IMG/VR virus record: IMGVR_UViG_3300029305_010146
Strand: one strand, 5' to 3'
Length of the DNA stretch: 64,000 nt
DNA from: an uncultured virus (IMG/VR IMGVR_UViG_3300029305_010146)
Taxonomy: Duplodnaviria > Heunggongvirae > Uroviricota > Caudoviricetes
Shown: in pieces, positions 1-52,192 of the stretch
Numbering within the stretch: position 1 is the stretch's first letter
How the letters are laid out: each line of letters begins with the position of its first letter
Program-made: the position numbers and the translations under genes
The notes under the pieces: model-generated
Database searches by the model: none
The model's input: the letters and a program-made list of their open reading frames with translations, nothing else
What the model was told of the DNA's origin: nothing

Positions 1-757
1 TCATACCTCTTTTAATGGTTTTTGGTAATACAATAGTACCATCGTGATGTCCGTCGTGACAAGTTTTGCAAAGTGTAACTAAATTATTTGGTGCATCGCC
101 ACCAGTTTTTCTGCTTTCAATATGATGTACTTCTAAAACTGGGTCTTTGCTTTTGCCTTTGCAACATTGGCATTTATGCCCATCACGAAATAATACATAT
201 TCCCTGACATTCCAATGGTCGAGCATTTCGCCCCACTGGTATTCAATTCCTTTAATGTCAGGATTCTTAATTTTCTGAATATCAAAAGATGCTATCTCCA
301 CAATAATTTTACTAATCGGTAAAATTTTATGTAGGCCAGAAATTACTTTTAAGTGAGTTTGGATTTTATTCTCAACGGATGGTGCTAACCATCCTTTGCT
401 TTTACTATGCACACGATTATTAAATCGTGGTGCTCTATATCTGGTTTTGCGTTTTCTTCTACTTGTGCGAAGTTCTCTTTTGGTAGAAAGTAATTCCACA
501 ATATCATTTCGTAGTTCAACTTCACCAGAATAAACTTCTTCACTTTCAGTAGAAGCAGATAATCCAATTACTTTGCTACCAGCATCTACCCCAAGTACGA
601 TATCTTGAGTATAGGATGTTGTATCATAAAGCAATTGAATAGTAAACGGACATCTTTTTACTACTTTCGCTTGATTGGAACGAAGTAGATGTTTTACTTT
701 ACCGTGCCTATTTGTAGGCATAAGCGGTTGCCCGTTATTGCTGATTACATATACCAA
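1..757 (-). CDS. iscB: IscB RNA-guided endonuclease (IS200/IS605 OMEGA), 3' part runs off window
   Basis: Manual translation from TTG at 757 after AGGAG: MVYVISNNGQPLMPT (PLMP), RuvC-I LGVDAGSK, Arg-rich helix RTSRRKRKTRYR, HNH region CQCC...HHIESRKTGGDAPNNLVTLCKTCH. Missing from the ORF track because it is open at the window edge. Confidence 0.92.
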   Translation of the reverse strand, partial: MVYVISNNGQPLMPTNRHGKVKHLLRSNQAKVVKRCPFTIQLLYDTTSYTQDIVLGVDAGSKVIGLSASTESEEVYSGEVELRNDIVELLSTKRELRTSRRKRKTRYRAPRFNNRVHSKSKGWLAPSVENKIQTHLKVISGLHKILPISKIIVEIASFDIQKIKNPDIKGIEYQWGEMLDHWNVREYVLFRDGHKCQCCKGKSKDPVLEVHHIESRKTGGDAPNNLVTLCKTCHDGHHDGTIVLPKTIKRGM

Positions 758-789
758 TATAGGCACTCCTTTCAATGTAATAAATACAT

Positions 790-1052
790 AATTCCGCATT
801 ACTACGGTTAGTTGACCATCGTCAATGTTATATACGGTTTGTTATTAGCAACACTGTGCCTACCCATCAGCACTGTTTAATCACTAACCGCAGAGTACGG
901 AACTTGGTCAAACATCCCGTAGTGCCTATATATTCGTATATAACGTAGTCTCTAAATAAATAGAGACAGAGACTATTCAACAAGGGATTATAGATAACTA
1001 CAATCCCCCACTTTAAATTTTAGTTACAAAATTAAGTGGTGGGTTGTTGAAT
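790..1052 (-). ncRNA. omega-RNA (HEARO-like) scaffold of the IscB element
   Basis: Minus strand starts TTCAACAACCCACCACTTAA...TTTAAAGTGGGGGATTG...AATCCCTTGTTGAATAG...GACTACGTT...CTCTGCGG...TTAAACAG...AACATTGACGATG directly upstream of iscB; boundaries approximate. Confidence 0.75.
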
Positions 1053-8032: not shown

Positions 8033-8599
8033 ATGACAGATGTTGAATTGGGAAAGTTTATTTCCTATATTTTAAGACACCATCCAGAAGATGTTGGAAT
8101 TAAATTGGATAAGAATGGATATGCCAATGTTTCTGATTTAATCACTAATATTAATGCAACAAAAAAATATCATAACGAACTATCTGAAGAACGATTGCAA
8201 CGAATAGTAGATACGAATGATAAAAAACGCTATTCTTACGATGAAACAGGAACAAAAATTCGTGCCGTTCAAGGTCATAGCTTTCATGTTGATGTCGCAA
8301 AAAAATCAATTCCTCCAATCACCTTATATCATGGAACTTCAAAAAGTGCTTATGATATTATTAGGAAAAAGGGTATCAACAAAATGAATAGAGATTTCGT
8401 ACATCTCTCTTCTAATAAAGATACGGCAATTGCTGTTGGAATGCGACATGCAAAGAGAAAAGAAAACCTCGTTATTTTAGAAATTGATGTAAAGAAAATG
8501 TTTTCAGACGGATACGATTTTTATGTCGCAGAAAACGGCGTATGGTTGACCGACTTTGTTCCAGCAAAATACATTGACACAATCCACACTATTCGCTAA
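8033..8599 (+). CDS. kptA: RNA 2'-phosphotransferase Tpt1/KptA
   Basis: SYILRHHP, DKKRY, IRAVQGHS, LYHGT, VHLS, NGVWLT motifs. Confidence 0.93.
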   Translation: MTDVELGKFISYILRHHPEDVGIKLDKNGYANVSDLITNINATKKYHNELSEERLQRIVDTNDKKRYSYDETGTKIRAVQGHSFHVDVAKKSIPPITLYHGTSKSAYDIIRKKGINKMNRDFVHLSSNKDTAIAVGMRHAKRKENLVILEIDVKKMFSDGYDFYVAENGVWLTDFVPAKYIDTIHTIR

Positions 8600-16658: not shown

Positions 16659-16687
16659 TTGACAAATGAAAATCAATGTGTTATAAT
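16659..16687 (+). promoter_or_regulatory. Sigma-A promoter of tRNA operon 1
   Basis: TTGACA-17-TATAAT with extended TG. Confidence 0.85.
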
Positions 16688-16728
16688 GAGTGTACAATAA
16701 AGAAATCAAGAGAAAGGGGTTCGCAATT

Positions 16729-16830
16729 ATGATGAATCTTCACAATTATGATTATAGACATCTTAATAACGATAACGAACGTAGTGCCGATTCATATTTG
16801 CGAGTCACTGCTTGTTTTTCTGCGGCCTAA
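16729..16830 (+). CDS. Leader peptide 1 (Asn/Asp-rich, 33 aa)
   Basis: AAGGGG RBS; MMNLHNYDYRHLNNDNERSADSYLRVTACFSAA. Confidence 0.75.
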   Translation: MMNLHNYDYRHLNNDNERSADSYLRVTACFSAA

Positions 16831-16856
16831 AGGCCAAAGAACTGATGCAAGATTAT

Positions 16857-16898
16857 TCCCAGTGACTGTGGCACATGCAGTTACTGGGATTTTTTATT
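16857..16898 (+). terminator. Attenuator terminator 1
   Basis: TCCCAGTGACTG/CAGTTACTGGGA stem plus T tract just before tRNA-Asp; 5' arm complementary to AGTCACTG at 16803-16810. Confidence 0.8.
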
Positions 16899-17296: not shown

Positions 17297-17449
17297 TCCT
17301 CGTTAGCTCAGTAGGTAGAGCAAGCGGCTGTGGTAAATTAGCATAAGTAATGCATATTTATCTGGACGGATAAATAGGATATGAGTTCAAATCTTGTATT
17401 TACCTCCATAACCGCTGGGTCGCAGGTTCGAGTCCTGCACGGGGAGCCA
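17297..17449 (+). tRNA. tRNA-Asn(GTT) interrupted by a 77-nt insert (17332-17408) in the anticodon
   Basis: Joining 17297-17331 to 17409-17449 gives a canonical 76-nt tRNA with AGCGG-CTGTTAA-CCGCT, G discriminator and CCA. Confidence 0.85.
17332..17408 (+). ncRNA. tRNA-like cloverleaf nested inside tRNA-Asn
   Basis: GGTAAAT/ATTTACC acceptor, GCAT/ATGC D stem, 8-bp anticodon-position stem, TTCAAAT T loop, TCCA end. Confidence 0.8.
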
Positions 17450-17464
17450 TGAGATTTGGCCAAA

Positions 17465-17707
17465 AACATCTTTAATAAAAGTTAAAATATTTGCAAAAGC
17501 ACAAAAATATTGCATAATAAAATTATAATAGATAAACTTACAACCAATTAGGTAAGTTTTGCCAAGGGTAAGTTAAATAATATCTATTCCAAAATGTATC
17601 CCATTAGGGTAGAGGTAATGTGTCTTGCCTTAATGGTGGGTTATCCCATCATTAGAAGCACCCACTTCAGAAAAATCGTTAGAATTTTTAAGTGGTGTGT
17701 AGTTCAC
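17465..17707 (+). mobile_element. Possible non-autonomous IS200/IS605-type remnant
   Basis: 3' end GAAGCACCCACTT...AAGTGGTGTGTAGTTCAC resembles TnpB-element right ends; no ORF; left boundary uncertain. Confidence 0.4.
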
Positions 17708-17759
17708 AGGCCAAATTCTCAACCTATTAAATATAACTCCATAATAATGGAGTTTATAT

Positions 17760-17838
17760 CTCCCGATAACTCAGTCTGGTAGAGTGCTTAAATATTTTAT
17801 TTAAGAGGTCGTGGGTTCAAATCCCATAAAGGAGACCA
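17760..17838 (+). pseudogene. Degenerate tRNA gene, anticodon unassignable
   Basis: Good D arm, T arm and CCA, but three acceptor mismatches and an aberrant CTTAAAT-ATTTT-ATTTAAG arm. Confidence 0.65.
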
Positions 17839-18141
17839 AGTCCAAACGCCTCTGCCCAAGGTTGCAAGCGGACCACTTGGACTGCTTGAAAAAAAGTTAA
17901 AATCCTGCTTTTGTAGGACCGACTCTTTGGGATTGATTACCCCAAAAAGGGTTGCTCCAGTTTTGGTTGAACCGCATTTCCAACTCAACAGTCCTAATCA
18001 AACTTTTGTTTTGGAATACTTAATTTACAATATTGTAGCGGGAATATCGATTACATCAAAAAATTCTTTGTTATTTGGATTACAAAATTTTTTATTTTTT
18101 CATTAAATCGATTTCAATATTCGCAATATCGTATTTTATAT

Positions 18142-18226: not shown

Positions 18227-18348
18227 TGTGCTTCGGCACACCGACAACATAGTTGTCAGTCCAGTGTACACAAAGGACACCATCCAACAGACTTAATGAT
18301 GGAGAGGAGAAACCTCGTGAAACTTTTAGTCAGTTATACACTTCCGAC

Positions 18349-18415
18349 GGCACCGACACATTGATAGGTGAGGTTTTTCGGGAAAGTTTAACCGAGTTCG
18401 AGTCTCGGCGGTGCA
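18349..18415 (+). ncRNA. Short tRNA-like RNA without CCA
   Basis: GCACCG/CGGTGC stem stacked on CCGAG-TTCGAGT-CTCGG T arm; no canonical anticodon loop. Confidence 0.5.
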
Positions 18416-18458
18416 TTAGGGTAAAGAGTGTATGACAAAACTGCCCCCACAAAAATAT

Positions 18459-18536
18459 GTCCCGTTAGCTCAGTTGGAATAGAGCACCGCTCTTCTAAAG
18501 CGGGTGTCATTGGTTCGAGTCCAATACGGGATGCCA
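18459..18536 (+). tRNA. tRNA-Arg(TCT)
   Basis: CCGCT-CTTCTAA-AGCGG, CCA. Confidence 0.94.
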
Positions 18537-18572
18537 TGAAGAAAATATTTTTTCAAATTATAAAAAAAGTAG

Positions 18573-18601
18573 TTGACAAACCTCAAATTATGTGATATAA
18601 T
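18573..18601 (+). promoter_or_regulatory. Sigma-A promoter of tRNA operon 2
   Basis: TTGACA-17-TATAAT with extended TG. Confidence 0.85.
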
Positions 18602-18622
18602 CACAATGTAAATAAGACCTAT

Positions 18623-18709
18623 GCAGAATTGGTGGAATAGGCAGACACGCCGTCTTGAGGGGGCGGTGCCAGTAATGGCGTATGAGTTCAAGTCTCATAT
18701 TCTGCACCA
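18623..18709 (+). tRNA. tRNA-Leu(GAG)
   Basis: Type II cloverleaf, CCGTC-TTGAGGG-GGCGG, CCA; lies upstream of leader 2. Confidence 0.93.
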
Positions 18710-18758
18710 TAAACAAATTATTAAACTATCAAATTTTTTAGAAAAGGAGTAAATCAAA

Positions 18759-18872
18759 ATGAAGTTCAATATCACTTTTGTACATGAATATGAATATCGC
18801 TATGAACACAGGATTTCAAACATTGAGTCTGTGTCTATTCGTCGTGCAAAAAATGGCGATATTGACCACTAA
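18759..18872 (+). CDS. Leader peptide 2 (His/Glu/Tyr run, 37 aa)
   Basis: AAGGAG RBS; MKFNITFVHEYEYRYEHRISNIESVSIRRAKNGDIDH. Confidence 0.8.
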   Translation: MKFNITFVHEYEYRYEHRISNIESVSIRRAKNGDIDH

Positions 18873-18900
18873 AAAGGTTTACTTCAAAAAGTAGAAGTTC

Positions 18901-18945
18901 AATGCCTGATGACTCAATGTTAGAGTTGTCAGGCATTTTTATTTT
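18901..18945 (+). terminator. Attenuator terminator 2
   Basis: AATGCCTGATGACTC/GAGTTGTCAGGCATT stem plus T tract; 18911-18921 is the exact complement of 18819-18829. Confidence 0.85.
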
Positions 18946-18953
18946 ATCAATAT

Positions 18954-19065
18954 AGGGGAGTATGCAAGTGGCCAAAGCAAGGAGCGGTGAACTCCTGTTG
19001 TTTTAGACTTGGGTGCACATGTGGTCTTTACAACTTCGTTGGTTCAAATCCAACCTCCCCTACCA
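18954..19065 (+). tRNA. Atypical Tyr-body tRNA with GTG at anticodon position and about 40-nt variable arm
   Basis: AGGGGAG/CTCCCCT acceptor, loop CGGTGAA (G33), A discriminator, CCA. Confidence 0.6.
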
Positions 19066-19071
19066 ACATAT

Positions 19072-19159
19072 GGGGCAGTATGCATAGCGGCGATTGCAGC
19101 GGGCTGTAAACCCGTGACATTAAGAAACACCGTTGGTTCGAGTCCAACCTGCCTCACCA
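19072..19159 (+). tRNA. tRNA-Tyr(GTA)
   Basis: GCGGG-CTGTAAA-CCCGT, long variable arm, CCA. Confidence 0.9.
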
Positions 19160-19166
19160 TCAGCAT

Positions 19167-19242
19167 GGTGCTATCGACAAGTGGTTTAAGTCGTCGCCCT
19201 TTCAAGGCGGAGTCACGGGTTCGAATCCCGTTAGCATCACCA
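19167..19242 (+). tRNA. tRNA-Glu(TTC)
   Basis: TCGCC-CTTTCAA-GGCGG, CCA. Confidence 0.93.
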
Positions 19243-19246
19243 ATAT

Positions 19247-19330
19247 GGGAGAGTAGCAAATCGGCAACTGCGGCGGTCTGTAAAACCGTTCCTTATAGGG
19301 TAGTGGGGTCGGCACCCACCTCTCCCACCA
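19247..19330 (+). tRNA. tRNA-Tyr(GTA) with variant T loop GTCGGCA
   Basis: GCGGT-CTGTAAA-ACCGT, CCA. Confidence 0.85.
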
Positions 19331-19334
19331 ATAT

Positions 19335-19409
19335 GGCACTTTGGTCAAGCGGTTAAGACACTGCCCTTTCACGGCAGTAACACGGGTTCGAATCCCGTAA
19401 GTGTCACCA
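19335..19409 (+). tRNA. tRNA-Glu(TTC)
   Basis: CTGCC-CTTTCAC-GGCAG, CCA. Confidence 0.94.
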
Positions 19410-19487
19410 GGTAGACGTAGTTCAGTTGGTTAGAACGCCAGATTGTGGCTCTGGAGGTCGTGGGTTCGAATCCCATCGTCTACCCCA
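19410..19487 (+). tRNA. tRNA-His(GTG)
   Basis: G-1:C73, CCAGA-TTGTGGC-TCTGG, CCA. Confidence 0.94.
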
Positions 19488-19490
19488 TAT

Positions 19491-19566
19491 GGCACTTTCG
19501 TCTAAAGGTCAGGACACGGGACTTTCACTCCCGAAATGTTGGGTTCGAGACCCACAAGTGTCACCA
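19491..19566 (+). tRNA. tRNA-Glu(TTC)
   Basis: CGGGA-CTTTCAC-TCCCG, CCA; slightly irregular T stem. Confidence 0.88.
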
Positions 19567-19571
19567 TATAT

Positions 19572-19647
19572 GGTGTAGATGATGTAAAGGTTAGCATAAG
19601 GTGTTGTGACCACCTTTGCATGAGTTCAAGTCTCATTCTTCACCCCA
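19572..19647 (+). tRNA. tRNA-His(GTG)
   Basis: G-1:C73, AGGTG-TTGTGAC-CACCT, CCA; one acceptor mismatch. Confidence 0.85.
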
Positions 19648-19653
19648 TCATAT

Positions 19654-19738
19654 AGGCAGATATGCAAGCGGTCAAAGCGGGCGCACTGTAAATGCGTTAC
19701 TTTTTGTTTCGTGAGTTCGAATCTCACTCTGCCTACCA
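19654..19738 (+). tRNA. tRNA-Tyr(GTA)
   Basis: GCGCA-CTGTAAA-TGCGT, CCA. Confidence 0.9.
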
Positions 19739-19743
19739 AATAT

Positions 19744-19818
19744 GGCGCTATGGTCAAGTGGTTAAGACACCGCCCTTTCACGGCGGTATCACGGGTTCGA
19801 ATCCCGTTAGCGTCACCA
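19744..19818 (+). tRNA. tRNA-Glu(TTC)
   Basis: CCGCC-CTTTCAC-GGCGG, CCA. Confidence 0.94.
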
Positions 19819-19959
19819 TAACAAGTTCGCTTGTGATTTAAAAAGTGTATCCCATAACTTTTCAACTGGAGAAACGAAGCAAATGGGAATATGTCTTTGT
19901 TTCTGGTTTTAGTCGGCAGCGATTGGTTCCTTAACCAAAAACTGATTACTGCCATGCAT

Positions 19960-20036
19960 GGTGCTTTCGTCTAACTGGTCAAGGATGTAAGACTCTCAAT
20001 CTTACGATACGGGTTCAAGTCCCGTAAGCATCACCA
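19960..20036 (+). tRNA. tRNA-Glu(CTC)
   Basis: TAAGA-CTCTCAA-TCTTA, CCA. Confidence 0.9.
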
Positions 20037-20037
20037 A

Positions 20038-20150
20038 GTTGTCGTAGCGGCAATTATGATTTCATCGTATAACGGTTAATACAACAAACTTGAAATTTGT
20101 CCATATAGGTTCGAATCCTATTTATAATCATAATATTTATTCACGACAAC
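20038..20150 (+). ncRNA. tRNA-like RNA (TGA loop) with extended closing stem, no CCA
   Basis: D arm GTAT/ATAC, ACAAA-CTTGAAA-TTTGT, ATAGG-TTCGAAT-CCTAT, closed by ATTATGATT/AATCATAAT and GTTGTCGT/ACGACAAC. Confidence 0.6.
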
Positions 20151-20158
20151 TTTTATAT

Positions 20159-20235
20159 GTGCCAATAGCTCAATGGACGAGAGTGGACGGCTACGAACCG
20201 TCAGGTTGCAGGTTCGAGTCCTGCTTGGCATGCCA
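20159..20235 (+). tRNA. tRNA-Arg(ACG)
   Basis: GACGG-CTACGAA-CCGTC, CCA. Confidence 0.93.
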
Positions 20236-20333
20236 AAACAATGGAGACCAAAAATTAGTCTCCATTTTTTCATTGACAATAAAAGAAAAATCATCTATGC
20301 TATGTTTAACATAAATGAAAGGAATGATTTCTT

Positions 20334-21545
20334 ATGAAATTTAATTGCAAATCTCGCAAAGGTTTCACACTTATCGAACTTCTCGTGGTTATAGGCATCC
20401 TTGCTGTGTTGGCAGCAATTGCTATTCCAAGTGTTGCTGGACTTATTGATAGAGCGAATGTTTCTGCTGACAATACTAATGCCAATGAATATACAAACGC
20501 AATTGAAAGATTTACATCGGAGTATGAACTCTATTGCCAAGATGTAGCATCTGGCAAAATAAAGGATGCGGATAATGATGGTAAACCCGACAATATGGAT
20601 GCAGCACAAGGTCGAGTTTTTAATGTTACTAAAGTAGTTACTCGTGCAGATATTACCGCACTCGAAAGTACTGGACTTGGTGATGCAATGATTAGTAGAG
20701 ATACAAAATATCCTCTTAATGGCATTACTCTCAAATCCATTATTGAGAACTATACAAAAACTAGTTCTGTCACATTCGAACCCAAACAAAGCGATAAAGT
20801 TTATTGGTATTCTCCAGATTGTGGTTTAGTAGTCGTTGCTAATCCTAATTCATCTAAAGATGCTCTTAATAATCTTGTAATTTCGGGTAAAGATGCAAAA
20901 GGCAATACATTAGGTTCTGGAACCAATTGGGTTGATGTTACGAACTACAGTCTTATCAAGATTATATGTGGTAATGGTGCTGACGGTTTGCATTACCACA
21001 ATGACGAATTGTTCACAGGTATTTGCGATAGTGATGGCGAATGGTATGACAATGGCGTACAAGGACCAATTTGCTTCTTATCGGGCACAAAAATCACCAT
21101 GGCAAATGGAACACAAAAAAATATTGAAGATATTATTGTAGGCGATAAGGTAGTATCTTATAATGTAGAAACTAAAATTTTCTATATTACAACTGTCTGT
21201 AACACCTTTGTTAGAGAAACAGAAGTTTATTACACAATAAGATTCGATGATGGAACAGAACTCAATTTAACTGGATGCCATCCGCTATTAACACCAAAAG
21301 GATTCGAAAACATTACTGGTGTCCATGAAAGATTAAATATGGTTGATGCACTTGATGTTGGTGATGAAGTTATTTCTGTCAATGATACCAAAAAAATAGT
21401 TTCTATTGAAAAAATAATAGAAAAAACAACTGTATATAATTTCAATGTTATAGACGACGAAGAAATTATCATTGGTAAAGATAATGATTCTAATGACACA
21501 TATATTGCAAACGGAATTGTATCACACAATGCAGATTATTCTTGA
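20334..21545 (+). CDS. Type IV pilin-like protein with C-terminal Hint (BIL-type) domain
   Basis: KG|FTLIELLVV prepilin motif; Hint CFLSGTKITMANG...TGCHPLLT...VYNFNV...IVSHN at 21072-21530. Confidence 0.88.
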   Translation: MKFNCKSRKGFTLIELLVVIGILAVLAAIAIPSVAGLIDRANVSADNTNANEYTNAIERFTSEYELYCQDVASGKIKDADNDGKPDNMDAAQGRVFNVTKVVTRADITALESTGLGDAMISRDTKYPLNGITLKSIIENYTKTSSVTFEPKQSDKVYWYSPDCGLVVVANPNSSKDALNNLVISGKDAKGNTLGSGTNWVDVTNYSLIKIICGNGADGLHYHNDELFTGICDSDGEWYDNGVQGPICFLSGTKITMANGTQKNIEDIIVGDKVVSYNVETKIFYITTVCNTFVRETEVYYTIRFDDGTELNLTGCHPLLTPKGFENITGVHERLNMVDALDVGDEVISVNDTKKIVSIEKIIEKTTVYNFNVIDDEEIIIGKDNDSNDTYIANGIVSHNADYS

Positions 21546-23158: not shown

Positions 23159-24145
23159 ATGAAATTTAATTACAAATCTCGCAAAGGTTTCACTCTTATT
23201 GAACTTCTTGTAGTCATTGGTATTTTAGCAGTTCTCGCTGCTATTGCTATTCCATCAGTTGCTGGTCTCATTGACAGAGCAAACGTTTCTGCTGACAATA
23301 CCAATGCGAGCGAGATGACGAATGCTATGGAGAGATTTGTATCTGAATATGAATTATTCAGACAAGATATTGCATCGGGCACATTTGATAAAGACAATAT
23401 GGATGCCACACAAAGCAGAGTGTACAATGTTACAAAAGCAGAAACTCGTACCGACATTGAGAAACTCGAAAGTAAAGAAGGTCTAAATGGTATTCGCATC
23501 GATATCGATAACAAATATGCACAAAACCACGAAACTGCAAAAGCAGTAATGCGGAATTATATGAAGACCAGTTCTTCCACTTTCGAACCAAAACAGAGCG
23601 ATATGACTTATTGGTATAATACAGTCACTGGTTATACTGTTGTTGCAGAAAAAGATACAGATACTTCAACCCTATATACTAAACTACCAACACAAGTAGA
23701 ATATGTGAACAACACTCCTGCATCAATTAATGAATGGATTGACTTATCTTCTACTGTTGTCATCCCAGATATTGCTTTAATTCATGTGCATAAATGGCCA
23801 ACTCTGGATGCAGAAGGCAAACATCAAATATGCATGCATTATTCTGGTGAAATTCCAGACGATTCGATTGGTGAATTATTCTTAATTTGGGATTTAGGCG
23901 AATATGAACAAGGTGAACTACCAACACTAAACTATACGAATTCTTATAGAGAACCATGGAAGATGACTGGCAGCAATCCGCCGTGCAATGGAGAATATAA
24001 TGTGAGGTTGCATGGATACAAACCAGAACAATTAGATAAAGTAGAATACTTTAGATGGTGTTACAAATACAACGAAAATGGTCAAACAAAGTTTGTGTAC
24101 TCACCAATTTATGCTTTTGCATTCAATGATTTACCAAACGAATAA
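23159..24145 (+). CDS. Type IV pilin-like protein
   Basis: Same KG|FTLIELLVVIGILAVLAAIAIPSV N-terminus; unrelated C-terminal domain. Confidence 0.88.
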   Translation: MKFNYKSRKGFTLIELLVVIGILAVLAAIAIPSVAGLIDRANVSADNTNASEMTNAMERFVSEYELFRQDIASGTFDKDNMDATQSRVYNVTKAETRTDIEKLESKEGLNGIRIDIDNKYAQNHETAKAVMRNYMKTSSSTFEPKQSDMTYWYNTVTGYTVVAEKDTDTSTLYTKLPTQVEYVNNTPASINEWIDLSSTVVIPDIALIHVHKWPTLDAEGKHQICMHYSGEIPDDSIGELFLIWDLGEYEQGELPTLNYTNSYREPWKMTGSNPPCNGEYNVRLHGYKPEQLDKVEYFRWCYKYNENGQTKFVYSPIYAFAFNDLPNE

Positions 24146-25353: not shown

Positions 25354-26838
25354 ATGAAATTTAATGCAAAATCTCGTAAAGGTTTCACCTTGATTGAACT
25401 CCTCGTGGTTATTGGCATTCTTGCCGTTCTCGCTGCAATCGCTATCCCTTCCGTTGCTGGTTTAATCGACAGAGCAAACCAGTCTTCCGATAACACAAAT
25501 GCAAAAGAGATGACAAATGCCATCGAGCGCTTCACTTCTGAATACGAACTATACTGTCAAGATGTAGCATCTGGCACATTAAATGTAACAGACCTCGATT
25601 CTGCACAAGGAAGGGTATTCAACGTAACGGAGATTGAAACTCGAAAAGGTGTAGAGATGACCGAAAACCTCGGTTATACACACGACATAGTAGCAGTTGA
25701 CAGAGATACAAAATATCCAGTTAACGAAGTTACTGCAAAAAAGGTTATCGAAAACTTTATGAAGACCAGTTCTTCCACCTTTGAACCAAAGCAGAGTGAC
25801 TGCAGTTATTACTATTCTCCACAGGTTGGTAAAGTAGTTGTTGCTAAAACTGGTAGTACCATTGCAGAATTAAATAAAATTGCTATGGAAGATGAAGCAG
25901 AGTATGCAACAATTAACAATGGCGAAATCATTGAATGGATTAACCTTTCCGTTAATGCAGGAAAAGAAGTAAATGACTGGACCTATGTTAATGCAGCAAC
26001 CCCAACGAACAATCAATATAAAGAATTAGGTACAAAAGCACCTACTTTTAATATTGAGTGGAGTGCAAAGAATGAAGCAACTGGTCAACCAGTTACGGTT
26101 GGTGTTTCTATTTCTAATTCAAATTATTCTGGTAATGGCACAACTCCTTGTACGATGACGAATGTCCCAATGGGCAAATATGCATTGGTAGCAACTTATG
26201 CTGGTAATGAGTACAAATTCAACTTGCTTGTTTACCAAGAAGGAATTCAAACATTCAAGTTAACAATTCCAGGAACTAATATTTCTGTTGGTTCTGATAA
26301 CGATACATATGTACCAAGTGGCGGTTCTACACCAAGCACCCCAAGTACTCCCGAACCACCAATTCAAAGTTGTCAACATACAAATACCAAAGTAATCAAT
26401 GCAAAAGAGGCAACCACTGATGAAAAAGGTTATACTGGCGATACTTGGTGCAACGACTGTAACACTAAAATTGCAAGTGGTACAGAAATTAATTTCTTAC
26501 ATACAGTAACGATTGATTTTACAAATGGTTATTCTGTTAATCAAGTTTCGCGTAGTGATTTGGTTTATTTTTCAATGGATGGCGGTAATACATGGGTTGA
26601 CCTTGCAACACTTCTACCACAAGAAATATCCCCTTATCAAAGAACAACTATAACAATCGAGTGTTCTCAAATTAAAGCAGATATACGATATATGAATGGC
26701 CCAGGATATCAATTTTTGTCTAATGATTTAGGTGTTAACTTTGTGTGTTTGGCAATGAATACCGTAACAGATAATTTGATATTAACAGAAGATATTGTAA
26801 TTACAATTTCATTTGACCACTCTGGTGGTGCCAATTAA
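25354..26838 (+). CDS. Type IV pilin-like protein
   Basis: Prepilin motif; Pro-rich linker and CQH...GYTGDTWCNDC module shared with 61381; ends HSGGAN. Confidence 0.88.
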   Translation: MKFNAKSRKGFTLIELLVVIGILAVLAAIAIPSVAGLIDRANQSSDNTNAKEMTNAIERFTSEYELYCQDVASGTLNVTDLDSAQGRVFNVTEIETRKGVEMTENLGYTHDIVAVDRDTKYPVNEVTAKKVIENFMKTSSSTFEPKQSDCSYYYSPQVGKVVVAKTGSTIAELNKIAMEDEAEYATINNGEIIEWINLSVNAGKEVNDWTYVNAATPTNNQYKELGTKAPTFNIEWSAKNEATGQPVTVGVSISNSNYSGNGTTPCTMTNVPMGKYALVATYAGNEYKFNLLVYQEGIQTFKLTIPGTNISVGSDNDTYVPSGGSTPSTPSTPEPPIQSCQHTNTKVINAKEATTDEKGYTGDTWCNDCNTKIASGTEINFLHTVTIDFTNGYSVNQVSRSDLVYFSMDGGNTWVDLATLLPQEISPYQRTTITIECSQIKADIRYMNGPGYQFLSNDLGVNFVCLAMNTVTDNLILTEDIVITISFDHSGGAN

Positions 26839-40493: not shown

Positions 40494-40522
40494 TTGACAA
40501 AACAAATCCAATGTGCTATAAT
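40494..40522 (+). promoter_or_regulatory. Sigma-A promoter of tRNA operon 3
   Basis: TTGACA-17-TATAAT; shares AATGTG.TATAATGAGT with promoter 1. Confidence 0.85.
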
Positions 40523-40577
40523 GAGTACAACGAAAGTCGAAAACGACTAAAAATCTTACGAAAGGTAGTGCACAGTT

Positions 40578-40661
40578 ATGAAAAACTTCACCACATCAAC
40601 AAGTCCATACGGTACATCGTCCAGTGCTACAACAATTCATAATGTGTCACTGTCTTTTTGA
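40578..40661 (+). CDS. Leader peptide 3 (Thr/Ser-rich, 27 aa)
   Basis: AAAGGT RBS; MKNFTTSTSPYGTSSSATTIHNVSLSF. Confidence 0.8.
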   Translation: MKNFTTSTSPYGTSSSATTIHNVSLSF

Positions 40662-40693
40662 CATGCATTAAATGCATATGTGCAGATTAGATT

Positions 40694-40732
40694 GCCAGTG
40701 ACCACACTATGTGATTACTGGTTTATTTTTTT
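40694..40732 (+). terminator. Attenuator terminator 3
   Basis: GCCAGTGACCACA/TGTGATTACTGGT stem plus T tract abutting tRNA-Thr; 5' arm pairs with TGTGTCACTG in the leader. Confidence 0.8.
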
Positions 40733-40886: not shown

Positions 40887-41340
40887 GAGTGGTTCGACTA
40901 GTTAGATAGCACTTCCGCCCTTAAAGAAAGCCATCTAACAGGATGACAACCTTGCAGTTATCAATAAGCGAATGAGTAGTGGTATATTGAAAGTTCAAAC
41001 TGTTGGTAACAAAATAGTCAATATGCCTTAATGTGTTGTAGAAACTTGCGAAGACTACAACCACCTGCAAACTTCAGTGAGCAGGCGGATACATACATAA
41101 AAGACTTCCGACGGTGAACCCTTTTGAAGCACTGTGTTTTAGGCGGTCATTTATTATAGGGTATATGAGAGTGTTTGTTATAAGAGCATAGTGCTCTTGC
41201 ATGCAAGCAGATATTCCCATATATCACTAAATAAATGATGAACAGCCGAGTTAAGCAGGTAAGCATATTGGTTGCAAACGATATGGTTTTTGGTGGGCAG
41301 GATGAGAAAAGGGCTGGAAGAACGACATCTAACCGTTTTC
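40887..41340 (+). ncRNA. Candidate large structured ncRNA
   Basis: No ORF of 60 aa or more, several helices, 5' and 3' ends partly complementary. Confidence 0.45.
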
Positions 41341-41343
41341 TAT

Positions 41344-41419: not shown

Positions 41420-41812
41420 AGGGTTTGTAACAAATGTGGTTCCCTAACAAAAATAAACTTCATTTGTAGTCGCACGGACTTAACGTGCAATACCGATTAT
41501 AAACACTAATGTGTTTCTAATATCTGGTGAACTCTACCAACCTTTCTAAATGGGAGATAGTCCAAAAGCACACCCGTGTGAGGATGAGACAAGTGAGATA
41601 GTTTGTAACCCAGAAGACGAACAGAGAGTTACAAATGACACCTTGAGACAGTGGGGTTTGAAGAAACTGTCGGTTTCGTGAGTTTTCGAAGGCTTTCACA
41701 ATTCAAGTATCGAATACAATAATGTTGGCGAGAATAGGACGATATGGGTAGTTACTATGACATCGCAAAATTGTTTTTAATAACACTTCACTGGCATTTT
41801 CGAAGTGTATAT

Positions 41813-41930
41813 GACCGTAAGTGGAAGTAAGTAACGGAGTAATTAACCGTGAAAGCGAGAACACCGCCCTATGCTAGTTAAGGGGTAGAGAGTTGTACGA
41901 GAACGGGTTTGAGTCCTGACACGGTTGCCA
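41813..41930 (+). ncRNA. Expanded tRNA-like RNA ending in CCA
   Basis: GACCGT/ACGGTT+GCCA, CGGG-TTTGAGT-CCTG T arm, enlarged D and anticodon loops. Confidence 0.55.
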
Positions 41931-41939
41931 TATTTTTTC

Positions 41940-42070
41940 AGATGTGTGGTGTAAAAGTACGATACATAAAATAGCACACCCTGTAGTTGATAACCATAAT
42001 AACCTTTCTATGATACGGCAGAAAGGGGCAGGGAAATCCTACTTGGAGAATCGGGAGTGTAGGCACATCT
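41940..42070 (+). ncRNA. tRNA-geometry RNA with all three loops enlarged
   Basis: AGATGTG/CACATCT, GTGT/GCAC, CCCTG/CAGGG, CCTAC/GTAGG with canonical 2/1/4-nt junctions. Confidence 0.55.
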
Positions 42071-42077
42071 TTTTAAT

Positions 42078-50605: not shown

Positions 50606-52192
50606 TTAGTCGCTTTCGCAACTTAACTCCACAAGAACGGGATTTGCTCCATTGTAAGAGTAAGTAAGTACAAAATGTTCAGAAATCATATCCAGTTCAT
50701 AGATATTGACTTCTACGGAAATCTGTGTACCAATAGGCATTTTCAAATCCGTACAAGTTTTCTCAATATCTCTTTGGACATCAAACTCCAAATCATCCAT
50801 ATCTTTACCGACTCTCTCAATGTGTCGCTTACCATACTCCTTTGCATCAACATCAGCAACTACCTTGAAGATATAATGAGTACGAACATAACCCAAAAGG
50901 TCATCCTTGTCGTTAGACAACTCGTCGCTCATTACCTTATCTAAAAGGTCTTTGAAAATGTCAGAAAACAAAGGAGAAGGCTGGAGACCCAAGTCCTTTA
51001 AGTCATTGCCCGTAATAGCAAGATGTTTTTTGTCCGTGCAGTCATTGCCCGCCAATACATCGTCCATCAAAAGACGAACATTGTAAATCTGGTCAAGAAC
51101 TCCGTGGTCGCAAACAACCTGTCTGTTCTGCGCGAGACAGTCTGCGCATCTTACCTTCAATAGATTGAAGGAAGCATCTGCACCAATCTGCGAGAACAAC
51201 TTACGAACCGCCTTTTTGGAAACGGGAACATTTCTGTCGTGGTGTTTAACGAGAGTAGATACCCTATCTATCGTGTCATTGTCAAACTTGAGTCTTCGCA
51301 TAATGTCAATACACATGCTGTAACTCTTGTCGCCATGACCGTAGAAATGACCAACACCGTCGTCATCCACCGTAAAGACAGAAGGTTTGCCGATGTCATG
51401 GAACAGCATTGCAAGTCTCAAGTCCTTATCAGCATCAATATTCTGAACGGAGTGAATGATGTGCTCATACACATCATATACATGCCAATTGTTCTTCTGG
51501 TCGAAGTCAAAGCACGCCTCAATTTCAGGAATAAAGACTGCGATAATATCTCTAAACTCGTGCAATACATCATAAACACCCTTTCCTACGAGCATCTTCT
51601 GTAACTCAACAGAGATTCTCTCACAAGAAACCTTGCGGATTAAGTCCTTATGTGCATGCATTGCCTGCTTCGTTGCATCGTCAATAACAAAACCAAGTTG
51701 GGAAGCGAAACGCATTGCTCGTAAAATTCGAAGAGCATCCTCCTGAAAACGAGCATTCGCATCGCCAACACAACGAATCGTCTTGTTATGTATATCCTCT
51801 GCACCGCCAAACAAATCGACATACTTGTCGCCGTCGAATGCAATAGCATTCATCGTAAAGTCTCTGCGAAGCAAATCATCACGGAGATTTCTTACGAAAC
51901 TCACACTGTCAGGATGACGACCATCGGAATAGTCACCATCTGCTCTGAAAGTCGTAATCTCGTAACTGTCGTTCGGAAATACCACTGTTACCGTACCGTG
52001 CTTTAAGCCCGTCTCGATAATACGATAATCCTTAAAGACATCCTCAACCTCCTGCGGTAAAGCGGATGTGCAGATATCGTAGTCGTGAACATCTCTGCTC
52101 ATCAACTTATCTCTTACACAACCACCTACGAGATATGCCTCATAACCCGCTTGATGAAGTCTCTGCAAAATCAATCTAACCTCACTATTCAT
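50606..52192 (-). CDS. cca: tRNA nucleotidyltransferase (CCA-adding) with HD domain
   Basis: VGGCVRD, DYDICT, RRDFTMNA, EDALRILRA, H...HDIGKP...GH; CCA vs CC/A specificity not determinable by eye. Confidence 0.9.
   Translation of the reverse strand: MNSEVRLILQRLHQAGYEAYLVGGCVRDKLMSRDVHDYDICTSALPQEVEDVFKDYRIIETGLKHGTVTVVFPNDSYEITTFRADGDYSDGRHPDSVSFVRNLRDDLLRRDFTMNAIAFDGDKYVDLFGGAEDIHNKTIRCVGDANARFQEDALRILRAMRFASQLGFVIDDATKQAMHAHKDLIRKVSCERISVELQKMLVGKGVYDVLHEFRDIIAVFIPEIEACFDFDQKNNWHVYDVYEHIIHSVQNIDADKDLRLAMLFHDIGKPSVFTVDDDGVGHFYGHGDKSYSMCIDIMRRLKFDNDTIDRVSTLVKHHDRNVPVSKKAVRKLFSQIGADASFNLLKVRCADCLAQNRQVVCDHGVLDQIYNVRLLMDDVLAGNDCTDKKHLAITGNDLKDLGLQPSPLFSDIFKDLLDKVMSDELSNDKDDLLGYVRTHYIFKVVADVDAKEYGKRHIERVGKDMDDLEFDVQRDIEKTCTDLKMPIGTQISVEVNIYELDMISEHFVLTYSYNGANPVLVELSCESD

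What the first reader, a model, noticed from the sequence alone, without database searches (positions are those of the whole stretch)
18759..20235. Attenuator 2: HEYEYRYEH leader ahead of a Glu/Tyr/His/Arg tRNA array
Codons 9-17 are CAT GAA TAT GAA TAT CGC TAT GAA CAC. Downstream lie Glu(TTC) x4, Glu(CTC), Tyr x3, His x2 and Arg(ACG), with no canonical tRNA for any other amino acid. AACATTGAGTC (18819-18829) is a perfect 11-nt complement of GACTCAATGTT (18911-18921) in the terminator. ACACAGG/TCTGTGT forms the competing hairpin over the last control codons. This is the cleanest of the three examples.
Basis: partly seen in the sequence, partly recalled or inferred. Interest (0 to 1): 0.9.

Follow-up and report, generated by a model that had tools for sequence, protein, structure and literature searches.

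The report
Leader-peptide attenuator gating a tRNA array
A tiny translated test gene spelled in His, Glu, Tyr and Arg codons sits with a switchable transcription stop in front of a block of His, Glu, Tyr and Arg tRNA genes, so this giant gut mobile element probably makes those spare tRNAs only when ribosomes read their codons slowly.

Summary
An SD-led 37-codon ORF lies at 18759-18872 and carries nine consecutive His/Glu/Tyr/Arg codons. A 15-bp terminator follows at 18901-18937. With no promoter-like site in between, an array follows whose tRNAs decode exactly those codons (Tyr, Glu, His, Arg), plus one odd UGA-anticodon tRNA.

- **Chance:** a run of nine arose in 5 of 2,000,000 random ORFs. 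An 11-nt antiterminator complement arose in 3 of 3,000 shuffles.
- **Folding:** masking a ribosome footprint codon by codon gives three states. With no ribosome, or a ribosome at the stop codon, the antiterminator is absent. With a ribosome on codons 1-16 it forms with probability about 0.98.
- **Paralogs:** two other leaders in the window share the promoter and terminator scaffold but carry the codons of their own arrays.
- **Natural variants:** 17 versions of the peptide, down to 62% identity, keep the frame. In them 145 of 150 control-region residues stay within H/E/Y/R.

Best reading (0.7): a leader-peptide transcription attenuator that switches on a spare tRNA array when its codons are read slowly. 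All evidence is computational. The terminator wins at equilibrium, so control must be kinetic.

Eight literature searches found no published account. This scan has noted the same architecture before on other DNA.

The parts
18573..18601 (+). Promoter P2: TTGACA, 17 nt, TATAAT, with TG extension.
   Evidence: 12 of 12 consensus matches. It is one of only 3 exact copies in the window of TTGACAAA-N9-ATGTG-N-TATAAT, and all three sit ahead of tRNA arrays. It has 1 difference from L082 across 18537-18622.
18623..18709 (+). tRNA-Leu(GAG), lying between the promoter and the leader and therefore upstream of the attenuator.
   Evidence: Called by ARAGORN and by Rfam at 45.8 bits. It is 100% identical in L082. 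The leader ORF contains no Leu codon.
18743..18749 (+). Shine-Dalgarno sequence AAAGGAG, 9 nt before the ATG.
   Evidence: Read directly from the sequence. A1, A3 and L083 have the same kind of site at similar spacing.
18759..18872 (+). Leader ORF of 37 codons plus TAA: MKFNITFVHEYEYRYEHRISNIESVSIRRAKNGDIDH.
   Evidence: It has 0 differences in 114 nt from L082, while the adjacent 5' UTR (18710-18758) is 75% identical. 17 distinct natural variants keep the frame.
18783..18809 (+). Control codons 9-17: His Glu Tyr Glu Tyr Arg Tyr Glu His.
   Evidence: All 9 are decodable by array tRNAs. A run of this length arose in 5 of 2,000,000 random ORFs. 145 of 150 residues in these columns across 17 variants are H, E, Y or R.
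18806..18834 (+). Hairpin 1:2 (anti-antiterminator). ACACAGG pairs with TCTGTGT, plus 5 inner pairs, and the hairpin sequesters region 2.
   Evidence: Free energy is -8.7 kcal/mol. It is present in the full-leader MFE structure.
18819..18829 (+). Region 2, the 5' strand of the antiterminator: AACATTGAGTC.
   Evidence: The 2:3 duplex has -17.2 kcal/mol.
18911..18921 (+). Region 3, the 3' strand of the antiterminator: GACTCAATGTT. It consists of the top 5 nt of the terminator's 5' arm plus the loop.
   Evidence: A complement of 11 nt or more arose in 3 of 3,000 shuffles.
18901..18947 (+). Intrinsic terminator (the attenuator): a 15-pair stem at 18901-18937, then TTTATTTTAT.
   Evidence: Found by the terminator scan. 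Free energy is -21.5 kcal/mol.
18955..19066 (+). Uncalled tRNA look-alike with a Tyr-like body, a long extra arm and anticodon loop CGGTGAA. It is the first gene after the attenuator.
   Evidence: Read from the sequence. Not called by ARAGORN or Rfam. It has 2 differences from L082. Its role is unknown.
19072..20235 (+). Regulated tRNA array: Tyr, Glu, Tyr, Glu, His, Glu, His, Tyr, Glu(TTC), a 141-nt gap, Glu(CTC), a UGA-anticodon tRNA, and Arg(ACG).
   Evidence: Called by ARAGORN. Rfam confirms all but the Tyr gene at 19247-19330. There is no + strand promoter-like site between 18601 and 20273.
20241..20271 (+). End-of-operon hairpin: ATGGAGAC, a 9-nt loop, GTCTCCAT, then TTTTTT.
   Evidence: Read by eye. 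The loop is too long for the scan used.
16659..16889 (+). Paralog A1: promoter 16659-16687, leader ORF 16729-16830 (MMNLHNYDYRHLNNDNERSADSYLRVTACFSAA) and terminator 16857-16889. It lies ahead of Asp, Asp, Ala, a split Asn, Leu and Arg(TCT).
40494..40722 (+). Paralog A3: promoter 40494-40522, leader ORF 40578-40661 (MKNFTTSTSPYGTSSSATTIHNVSLSF) and terminator 40694-40722. It lies ahead of Thr x3, Gly and Ser x4.

Best explanation
This is a ribosome-mediated (leader-peptide) transcription attenuator that gates a block of spare tRNA genes.

**Proposed sequence of events**
1. RNA polymerase starts at the consensus promoter P2 and first makes tRNA-Leu(GAG), which is not gated.
2. It then transcribes a 37-codon leader, which a ribosome begins to translate.
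3. If His, Glu, Tyr and Arg codons are decoded quickly, the ribosome runs over region 2 and on to the stop codon. Behind it, region 2 refolds into the 1:2 hairpin and the long leader helix. The 15-pair terminator then forms and transcription stops at about 18945, before the array.
4. If the matching charged tRNAs are scarce, the ribosome lingers on codons 9-16. It melts the leader helix and region 1 and leaves region 2 free. Region 2 pairs with region 3 as soon as region 3 emerges, which blocks nucleation of the terminator, and polymerase reads into the Tyr/Glu/His/Arg array.

The output (more of exactly those tRNAs) removes the stall, so the circuit is a negative-feedback supply loop.

**Shown here:** the anatomy, the codon-anticodon match, the alternative pairings, conservation, and the paralogous design.

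**Inferred:** translation of the ORF, kinetic competition between the structures, and the physiological signal.
For: 1. **Anatomy.** A 12-of-12 promoter, an SD sequence 9 nt before the ATG, a 37-codon ORF and a 15-pair terminator with a T run are present. There is no promoter-like site between the terminator and the end of the array.
2. **Codon match.** All 9 control codons are decodable by array tRNAs. A run of 9 or more arose in 5 of 2,000,000 random ORFs, and the longest run in 39 real genes is 7. The cross-matrix of matched codons (array 1 / array 2 / array 3) is diagonal: A1 10/9/3 of 33, A2 7/14/4 of 37, A3 3/5/13 of 27.
3. **Structure.** The leader folds far better than shuffles (-62.6 kcal/mol, z -5.98, 0 of 200 shuffles as good). 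An 11-nt complement arose in 3 of 3,000 shuffles. Element energies are 1:2 -8.7, 2:3 -17.2 and 3:4 -21.5 kcal/mol.
4. **Ribosome-footprint scan.** On the transcript cut before the 3' arm of the terminator, the probability of the antiterminator is 0.01 with no ribosome. It is 0.97-0.98 with the A site on codons 1-16, 0.20 on codon 17, at most 0.07 on codons 18-29, and 0.00 at the stop codon. The same pattern held in 5 of 5 alternative footprint and end settings.
5. **Paralogs.** A1, A2 and A3 share the promoter motif and the 3' half of the leader and terminator but differ in their control codons. Codons 3-18 of A1 (16 in a row) are all decodable by array 1, Leu(GAG) and array 2 together. A run of that length arose in 5 of 2,000,000 random ORFs, and the longest in real genes is 10. 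That comparison was chosen post hoc.
6. **Relatives.** In L082 the flanking genes are 86-96% identical, yet the A2 ORF has 0 differences in 114 nt and the stretch from ORF to terminator (18759-18954) has 1 in 196. The 5' UTR just upstream is 75% identical and has a 7-nt deletion. L083, whose neighbouring protease is 59% identical, keeps a 33-codon ORF of the A1 type with in-frame changes, the same region 2, and a terminator with changed but still paired positions.
7. **Peptide variants.** 17 distinct natural peptide variants, down to 62% identity, keep the start, the frame and the stop. In control columns 9-17, 145 of 150 residues are H, E, Y or R. The changes seen are H>Y, Y>H, R>H, R>Y, H>R and R>W. 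Columns 2-8 are only 57% identical to the reference.
8. **Array membership.** The array is rearranged in L082, and one contig of run X10 skips 19245-19335. The isotype set stays Tyr/Glu/His/Arg.
Against: - There is no experimental or transcript evidence.
- With the whole terminator present, the terminator pairs have probability 0.96-0.97 at every one of 38 ribosome positions. Antitermination can therefore only be kinetic.
- The antiterminator occupies only the top 5 pairs and the loop. The lower 10 pairs of the terminator are not sequestered and could form as a pseudoknot or by strand displacement.
- The ORF runs 41 nt past region 2, unlike classical leaders.
- The scan also predicts a transient antiterminator-permissive state at codons 30-31 or 30-32.
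- The paralogs behave less cleanly. With no ribosome the antiterminator probability is 0.96 for A1 and L083 and 0.47 for A3. With a ribosome at the stop codon it is 0.79 for A1 and 0.95 for L083.
- No DNA-level covariation could be tested for the A2 helices, because the only DNA relative is identical there.
- The fixed order HEYEY.YEH could reflect selection on the peptide or on the RNA rather than on codon class.
- Five variants carry Trp at position 14, and no tRNA-Trp lies in this window's array.
- A real gene in the window reaches the A3 score (11 of 15 codons), so A3's codon match alone is weak. A1 against array 1 alone gives only p about 0.018 (36,192 of 2,000,000).
- From recall: transcription and translation are reported to be poorly coupled in Bacillus subtilis. 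That would argue against this mechanism in a Firmicute host.
Confidence: 0.7

Rival explanations
1. This is a translation-dependent attenuator that senses general translation capacity, such as ribosome-targeting antibiotics or global slowdown, rather than supply of these particular tRNAs. On this view the H/E/Y/R run is incidental, or it serves as a nascent-peptide or RNA-structure element.
For: The footprint scan shows that a ribosome anywhere on codons 1-16, not only on codons 9-17, permits the antiterminator. Accessory tRNA arrays are known to be induced by general translational stress in Anabaena (PMC8421152, passages read). The order of the control residues is strongly conserved.
Against: The three leaders in the window each carry the codons of their own array (diagonal matrix). 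A run of 9 arose in 5 of 2,000,000 random ORFs. Substitutions among the variants stay inside the H/E/Y/R class in 145 of 150 cells.
Confidence: 0.1
2. The hairpin is a plain, partly leaky terminator or insulator that ends the tRNA-Leu plus small-ORF transcript. The array is then expressed by constitutive read-through or from an unrecognised promoter, and the small ORF is a separate small protein or is not translated.
For: The terminator is strong and wins at equilibrium at all 38 ribosome positions. Promoter scanning covers only sigma-70-type sites. There are no expression data.
Against: It does not explain the codon match or the 11-nt complement. It also does not explain the repeat of the whole design at three arrays with different codon sets, or the perfect conservation of the ORF next to a variable 5' UTR.
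Confidence: 0.1
3. The structured leader is an RNA processing or stability element for the polycistronic tRNA precursor, for example an RNase entry site or a protective hairpin. Alternatively it is a direct tRNA- or protein-binding riboswitch of the T-box kind.
For: The region is highly structured (z -5.98). It lies between tRNA genes that must be cut apart.
Against: No Rfam family, T-box included, matches the leader even at E<=1. A processing signal needs no SD, ATG, conserved frame or codon run. In-frame indels among the variants point to translation.
Confidence: 0.05

Closest known systems
Multivalent leader-peptide transcription attenuators of enterobacterial amino-acid operons (trp, his, thr, ilvGMEDA, pheA). 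The mechanism is recalled. The abstract of PMC1183508 was seen in the listing.
   Same: An SD-led short ORF carries a run of regulatory codons. There are 1:2, 2:3 and 3:4 alternative hairpins and an intrinsic terminator ahead of the regulated genes. Untranslated and fully translated leaders terminate, while stalled leaders read through. More than one amino acid is sensed.
   Different: The regulated genes are tRNAs, not biosynthetic enzymes, so the loop corrects tRNA supply rather than amino-acid supply. The element is AT-rich and looks Firmicute-associated. The ORF extends 41 nt beyond region 2. The antiterminator overlaps only the top of the terminator. A tRNA gene lies between the promoter and the leader. 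No Rfam leader family matches.
Ribosome-stalling leader attenuators of Firmicutes (bmrCD, vmlR, yxjB). Only the listings and abstracts of PMC4191407, PMC9226507 and PMC6851288 were seen.
   Same: In low-GC Gram-positives, ribosome position on a leader ORF decides between terminator and antiterminator.
   Different: Those leaders respond to antibiotics that stall the ribosome and control resistance genes. This one has a codon-class run that matches its downstream tRNAs.
T-box riboswitches
   Same: They sense tRNA status and act through a choice between terminator and antiterminator.
   Different: T-boxes bind uncharged tRNA directly and need no ORF. Here there is no Rfam T-box match, and an ORF is conserved.
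Inducible long tRNA array (trn operon) of Anabaena sp. PCC 7120 (PMC8421152 and PMC10272220; passages and word counts read).
   Same: An accessory, horizontally mobile tRNA array is kept off and switched on when translation is impaired.
   Different: Control there is at the promoter, through direct repeats and the repressor TrcR. The words leader, attenuat and terminator occur 0 times in either text.
Codon-matched leader-peptide attenuators ahead of phage tRNA arrays, noted earlier by this scan on other genomes (unpublished AI notes).
   Same: The architecture is the same: promoter, short ORF spelled in the array's amino acids, terminator, then array, with one leader per array.
   Different: Those notes concern other DNA. 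No sequence look-alike of this leader is on record in the scan. Features specific to this case are three paralogous leaders on one scaffold, a two-tier arrangement of A1 over A2, and an ungated tRNA-Leu ahead of the leader.

Membership tests
Ribosome-mediated (leader-peptide) transcription attenuators | A short ORF with a ribosome-binding site and start codon lies in the 5' leader. | tested here: met
   AAAGGAG lies 9 nt before the ATG at 18759, and the ORF has 37 codons. The frame is kept in 17 variants.
Ribosome-mediated (leader-peptide) transcription attenuators | A cluster of regulatory codons is cognate to what the operon supplies. | tested here: met
   9 consecutive H/E/Y/R codons face a Tyr/Glu/His/Arg array. 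A run this long arose in 5 of 2,000,000 random ORFs.
Ribosome-mediated (leader-peptide) transcription attenuators | An intrinsic terminator lies between the leader ORF and the regulated genes. | tested here: met
   A 15-pair stem with a T run at 18901-18947, -21.5 kcal/mol. No promoter-like site lies behind it.
Ribosome-mediated (leader-peptide) transcription attenuators | An antiterminator is mutually exclusive with the terminator. | tested here: inconclusive
   An 11-bp helix (-17.2 kcal/mol as a duplex) shares 5 stem nt and the loop with the terminator. The lower 10 pairs stay free, and the terminator wins at equilibrium.
Ribosome-mediated (leader-peptide) transcription attenuators | Ribosome position selects the structure: a stall on the control codons frees the antiterminator strand, and full translation or no translation does not. 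| tested here: met
   Tested in silico only. The antiterminator probability is 0.01 with no ribosome, 0.97-0.98 on codons 1-16 and 0.00 at the stop codon. The pattern was robust in 5 of 5 settings.
Ribosome-mediated (leader-peptide) transcription attenuators | The regulated genes encode amino-acid biosynthesis, transport or aminoacyl-tRNA synthetase functions. | tested here: not met
   The downstream genes are tRNAs only.
Ribosome-mediated (leader-peptide) transcription attenuators | Read-through rises when the cognate charged tRNA is limiting. | not testable with these tools
   This needs a reporter or an in vitro transcription-translation assay.
Rfam leader families (His, Leu, Thr and Trp leaders and the like; family names recalled) | A covariance-model match to the leader. 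| tested here: not met
   No non-tRNA family matches 18537-18954 at the gathering threshold. (E<=1) shows no such match in that range either.
T-box riboswitch | A covariance-model match, with specifier loop and T-box antiterminator bulge. | tested here: not met
   No T-box match at E<=1.
Codon-matched leader attenuators of mobile-element tRNA arrays (a class noted by this scan, unpublished) | Promoter, short ORF and terminator lie directly ahead of a tRNA array; the leader's codons match the array's isotypes; several arrays each have their own leader. | tested here: met
   Three arrays each have their own leader on this plan. The matched-codon matrix is diagonal.

The most novel reading that the evidence does not exclude
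The leaders form a two-tier damage sensor.

A1 lists the codons of both downstream arrays: 16 consecutive codons are decodable by array 1, Leu(GAG) and array 2 together. A2 re-checks only His/Glu/Tyr/Arg.

The sensed set is dominated by the NAY-codon tRNAs (His, Asn, Asp, Tyr), plus Glu and Arg. From recall, these are the classes cut by known anticodon nucleases of bacterial defence and colicin systems. On this reading the element would hold its spare tRNAs in reserve and release them only when the host or a competitor destroys those particular tRNAs. The output would be proportioned by codon count: H2 E3 Y3 R1 in the leader against His 2, Glu 5, Tyr 3, Arg 1 genes in the array.
Probability: 0.2. 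Interest if true: 0.9.

Novelty: new variant of a known kind. Interest (0 to 1): 0.8.

Why it matters
Why large phages and other mobile elements carry dozens of tRNA genes, and when they use them, is an open question. A leader peptide written in the array's own codons would be a self-contained gauge of decoding speed. It applies trp-operon logic to the tRNAs themselves rather than to amino-acid synthesis.

It gives a concrete and cheap test: a reporter fusion or a defined in vitro translation system with single tRNAs withheld. It also gives a way to predict, from sequence alone, which tRNAs an element considers limiting in its host. And it supplies a compact natural part that turns 'this codon is read slowly' into transcription.

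This window adds three things to the class:
- three paralogous leaders on one scaffold, which isolates the control-codon cassette as the part that changes;
- a set of 17 natural peptide variants whose substitutions stay within the sensed class;
- an apparent hierarchy of one attenuator over another.

Tried and rejected
**Genome and database relatives**
- No whole genome is held for this window.
- All 8 IMG/VR scans found no relative:
  - S41 protease: 0 confirmed.
  - Antiterminator/terminator pattern: 1 chance hit inside a coding region, with 0 tRNAs.
  - Exact control-codon 27-mer: 0.
  - NrdD: 80 loci, none with more than 1 tRNA, so none is syntenic.
  - Promoter motif: 0.
  - Region-2 motif: 32 hits, 0 of 32 with a tRNA within 1.5 kb.
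  - Two back-translated control-region patterns: 0 each.
- The GenBank phage collection gave only tRNA-level or trivial matches.
- PLSDB plasmids gave none.
- GTDB genomes gave only distant Clostridia-type S41 homologues, at most 38% identical.

**Reads and contigs**
- One 155-nt RNA-library contig of run X20, at depth 2, covers 18806-18958. Contigs show no ends or levels, and DNA can contaminate such libraries, so it says nothing about termination.
- The variant table lists none in 18526-18978, but 241 variants were not shown, so no conservation claim is drawn from it.

**Folding**
- Equilibrium folding with the full terminator gave no ribosome dependence. It was replaced by the cut-transcript scan.

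**Recalled precedent**
- I recalled that the E. coli tRNA-Phe genes pheU and pheV have an attenuator-like leader.
- The K-12 sequence shows a promoter directly ahead of each tRNA and no leader ORF.
- The two old papers I had in mind could not be fetched by DOI or found by phrase.
- The precedent is dropped.

**Peptide look-ups**
- The A1, A3 and L083 leader peptides are not in the protein collection.
- In the representative search, hit P0002, a 2,039-aa repetitive protein at 35% identity, was dropped as low complexity.

**Scripts**
- The A3 row used a frame off by one. It is superseded.
Full report
**What is there**

The window carries 26 ARAGORN tRNA genes in three same-strand blocks. The finding concerns the middle block.

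- A promoter matching TTGACA-17-TATAAT in 12 of 12 positions, with a TG extension, lies at 18573-18601.
- It is followed by tRNA-Leu(GAG) at 18623-18709.
- Next come a Shine-Dalgarno sequence AAAGGAG at 18743-18749 and, 9 nt later, an ATG at 18759. The ATG opens a 37-codon frame that ends with TAA at 18870-18872.
- A 15-pair hairpin at 18901-18937 followed by TTTATTTTAT is the strongest terminator-like site in the region (-21.5 kcal/mol).
- Seventeen bases later the tRNA genes begin. First is an uncalled Tyr-like look-alike (18955-19066). Then come Tyr, Glu, Tyr, Glu, His, Glu, His, Tyr, Glu(TTC), a 141-nt gap, Glu(CTC), a 73-nt tRNA with anticodon UGA, and Arg(ACG).
- A further hairpin and T run at 20241-20271 closes the unit.
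- The promoter scan found no + strand site between 18601 and 20273. By that test, the array can only be reached through the terminator.

- Rfam does not support the second Tyr gene, even at E<=1.
- The UGA-anticodon tRNA is called by both programs.
- The leader is not directly behind its promoter. It lies behind an ungated tRNA-Leu.

**Is it more than chance?**

I took as decodable the codons read by the array's anticodons under standard wobble. These make up 16.5% of 14,470 codons in 39 window genes.

- A run of nine or more arose in 5 of 2,000,000 random 37-codon ORFs.
- The longest run in the 39 real genes is seven.
- The perfect 11-nt complement between 18819-18829 and 18911-18921 was reached or exceeded in 3 of 3,000 dinucleotide-preserving shuffles of the ORF.
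- The whole leader folds at -62.6 kcal/mol, z = -5.98, with 0 of 200 shuffles as good.

**How the structures behave**

The parts have these free energies:
- hairpin 1:2 (18806-18834, ACACAGG with TCTGTGT plus five inner pairs): -8.7 kcal/mol;
- duplex 2:3: -17.2 kcal/mol;
- terminator 3:4: -21.5 kcal/mol.

With the complete terminator in the transcript, its pairs have probability 0.96-0.97 wherever a 30-nt ribosome footprint is placed (38 of 38 positions). Any antitermination therefore has to be kinetic. From recall, the same holds for the trp attenuator.

I then cut the transcript at 18922. At that point region 3 has been made but the 3' arm of the terminator has not. I asked whether 2:3 is formed.

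| Ribosome A site | Probability of the antiterminator |
|---|---|
| no ribosome | 0.01 |
| codons 1-16 | 0.97-0.98 |
| codon 17 | 0.20 |
| codons 18-29 | at most 0.07 |
| codons 30-31 | 0.98 and 0.88, a brief rise |
| codon 32 | 0.37 |
| codons 33-37 and stop | 0.00-0.10 |

With no ribosome, a long helix (18765-18790 with 18836-18866) and the 1:2 hairpin lock region 2 away. The same pattern came back in 5 of 5 other settings of footprint size, 5' end and 3' end.

This is the three-state behaviour of a classical attenuator. Untranslated and fully translated leaders terminate, and a ribosome held in the first half of the ORF reads through. The control codons fill the last eight positions of the permissive zone.

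Weak points:
- The antiterminator shares only the top five pairs and the loop with the terminator, so the lower ten pairs are never sequestered.
- The ORF runs 41 nt beyond region 2.

**Paralogs inside the window**

The other two arrays have the same build.

- A1 has promoter 16659-16687, ORF 16729-16830 and terminator 16857-16889. It lies ahead of Asp, Asp, Ala, Asn, Leu and Arg(TCT).
- A3 has promoter 40494-40522, ORF 40578-40661 and terminator 40694-40722. It lies ahead of Thr x3, Gly and Ser x4.

The three promoters are the only exact copies of TTGACAAA-N9-ATGTG-N-TATAAT in the window. There are 10 matches at up to 2 mismatches, against 0.02 expected.

An alignment shows that the 3' halves of the leaders and the terminators are homologous, while the control regions differ.

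Matched codons, counted against array 1 / array 2 / array 3:

| Leader | Array 1 | Array 2 | Array 3 | Codons in leader |
|---|---|---|---|---|
| A1 | 10 | 9 | 3 | 33 |
| A2 | 7 | 14 | 4 | 37 |
| A3 | 3 | 5 | 13 | 27 |

- A3's best 15-codon window holds 11 matched codons, which arose in 6 of 2,000,000 random ORFs. One real gene reaches 11 as well, so that figure alone is weak.
- A1 against its own array alone is modest (36,192 of 2,000,000).
- Codons 3-18 of A1, sixteen in a row, are all decodable by array 1, Leu(GAG) and array 2 together. That arose in 5 of 2,000,000 random ORFs, and the longest run in real genes is 10.
- This last comparison was chosen after seeing the data. It fits the layout, though: nothing but attenuator 2 separates array 1 from array 2.
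- The footprint scans of A1 and A3 agree that a stall in the control region permits the antiterminator and that a ribosome over the last ten codons blocks it. They are less clean with no ribosome (0.96 and 0.47). For A1 the stop-codon value is 0.79, while for A3 it is 0.00.

**Relatives**

No whole genome is held. IMG/VR, the GenBank phages, PLSDB and the GTDB genomes hold no relative (see Tried and rejected). The single metagenome scan gave two relatives.

L082:
- Its flanking genes are 86-96% identical in DNA, and it has both arrays.
- The A1 and A2 leader ORFs show 0 differences in 102 and 114 nt. The stretch 18759-18954 shows 1 difference in 196 nt.
- The 5' UTR just upstream (18710-18758) is 75% identical with a 7-nt deletion. 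Several tRNA genes are 83-92% identical.
- Its array 2 is rearranged but keeps the isotype set.

L083:
- Its neighbouring protease is 59% identical.
- It keeps an A1-type unit: promoter, SD, a 33-codon ORF (MMFPTNTYRHLDNIAIVGSDTSFMRVTACFSVA), an identical region 2, and a terminator with changed but still paired positions. tRNA-Asp and tRNA-Gly follow.
- The ORF length is preserved through in-frame changes.
- The contig ends inside the array, so the codon match cannot be judged.

**Peptide variants**

A search of 1.84 billion representative proteins with the 37-aa peptide gave 5 hits at E<=0.001. One, a 2,039-aa repetitive protein, was dropped. With cluster members this makes 17 distinct sequences, down to 62% identity.

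- All keep the start, the frame and the C-terminal DIDH.
- Lengths of 35, 36 and 37 residues differ by whole codons. Two longer calls (56 and 87 aa) use an upstream start.
- In control columns 9-17, 145 of 150 residues are H, E, Y or R. The other five are Trp at position 14.
- Position 14 reads R in 9 variants, W in 5, H in 2 and Y in 1. Positions 9, 11 and 17 swap H, Y and R among themselves.
- Columns 2-8 are only 57% identical to the reference.
- Ascertainment caveat: a protein collection can only hold variants that still have an open frame.
- The Trp variants give a sharp prediction that I could not test: a tRNA-Trp in their arrays.

**What the element is**

- The window is 33-41% G+C.
- It encodes ThyX, NrdD/NrdG, dUTPase, a dGTPase-like HD protein, formate-tetrahydrofolate ligase, an RNA 2'-phosphotransferase, a CCA-adding enzyme, DNA methylases, pilin-like proteins with Hint domains and a PcfJ-like protein. 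Many ORFs have no family. No virion gene is in the window.
- The exact leader peptide is on record on 35 contigs, the longest of 678,911 bp.
- The DNA occurs in animal gut and faeces runs of 16 studies.

I therefore call it a very large phage-like or plasmid-like element, or possibly a small genome, of the animal gut. The question is left open.

**Comparison with what is known**

- By mechanism it works like the multivalent leader-peptide attenuators of enterobacterial amino-acid operons.
- As for membership, it meets the structural features but not the one about cargo, since the regulated genes are tRNAs. It also matches no Rfam leader or T-box family, even at E<=1.
- The one published inducible accessory tRNA array I could read about, in Anabaena, is controlled by a repressor at the promoter. 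Neither text contains the words leader, attenuat or terminator.
- Eight full-text searches found no paper describing leader-peptide control of tRNA genes. Supplements and subscription journals were not searched.
- A precedent I recalled for E. coli pheU and pheV did not stand up to the sequence.
- This scan's own notebook holds 306 notes from at least 259 genomes with the same words. Several follow-up reports describe the same architecture in other phages. These are unchecked AI notes on other DNA, and none resembles this leader in sequence.
- In passing I saw the same plan in a cultured phage, Stenotrophomonas phage Ps15. A 27-codon ORF with Cys, Trp and Cys codons has a 3' end that forms one arm of a long hairpin. 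That hairpin competes with an annotated terminator, and tRNA-Trp and tRNA-Cys follow directly.

**Verdict**

The attenuator reading is the best supported one (0.7). It is a new variant of a known kind: trp-style attenuation applied to tRNA supply on a mobile element. Nothing here is experimental.

Noticed in passing
window 17297-17449 (insert 17332-17408); L082 7893-7968: The tRNA-Asn(GTT) gene is split inside its anticodon, after base 35, by a 77-nt insert. Rfam scores the insert itself as a tRNA at 39.9 bits. The relative L082 has the intact tRNA-Asn without the insert. The window also encodes an RNA 2'-phosphotransferase (8033-8599) and a CCA-adding enzyme (50606-52192, minus strand), which could serve tRNA splicing or repair.
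   Followed up: partly
window 18955-19066: A tRNA look-alike lies directly after the attenuator. It has a Tyr-like acceptor, D and T arms, an extra arm of about 41 nt, and anticodon loop CGGTGAA with G at position 33. Neither ARAGORN nor Rfam calls it, and it differs from L082 at only 2 positions.
   Followed up: partly
window 20058-20130 and 17760-17835: Two odd tRNAs. One is 73 nt with anticodon UGA but without the long arm of tRNA-Ser. The other scores 35.3 bits in Rfam, and its anticodon arm folds as an 8-pair stem with a 3-nt loop. Which amino acids they carry is unknown.
   Followed up: partly
window 17450-17759, 17836-18141, 18227-18458, 19819-19959, 40887-41343, 41420-42077: Long spacers lie inside the tRNA arrays. 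They match no Rfam family at E<=1 and have no repeat elsewhere in the window. Those of arrays 1 and 2 are 96-97% identical to L082. In run X10 the stretch 17519-17708 also lies on three other long contigs, so it may be a repeated or mobile RNA element.
   Followed up: partly
window 807-1051 (-) and 2-799 (-): A HEARO RNA (130 bits) lies next to an HNH-endonuclease-type ORF that runs off the window. This looks like an IscB/OMEGA-type pair.
   Followed up: no
window 20334-21545, 23159-24145, 25354-26838, 61381-63321: Four paralogous proteins have a prepilin N-terminal methylation motif. Two of them (20334 and 61381) also carry Hint or pretoxin-HINT domains.
   Followed up: no
window, 10 sites (e.g. 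2383, 14316, 37898, 43550-, 52321): A shared promoter type, TTGACAAA-N9-ATGTG-N-TATAAT, occurs 10 times at up to 2 mismatches, against 0.02 expected. The three exact copies are those of the tRNA arrays.
   Followed up: yes
protein collection, cluster of P0006: The exact A2 leader peptide is on record on 35 contigs, the longest 678,911 bp. The element or genome that carries it is therefore at least 0.68 Mb.
   Followed up: no
L144 2333-2470 (Stenotrophomonas phage vB_SmaM_Ps15, NC_070951.1, about 135532-135669): In this cultured phage a 27-codon ORF (MNNMYSQNQFCKWSVEDAGHRSVFESC) has a 3' end that forms one arm of a 12-pair hairpin. The hairpin overlaps the annotated terminator, and tRNA-Trp and tRNA-Cys follow at once. 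This is the same plan as the window's leaders and a possible laboratory model. The codon match rests on only 3 Cys/Trp codons.
   Followed up: partly
window 19245-19335 and 19412-19487, run X10: One contig of another sample lacks the second Tyr gene and shows a second skip across the first His gene. Array membership therefore varies between strains, while the isotype set stays the same.
   Followed up: no
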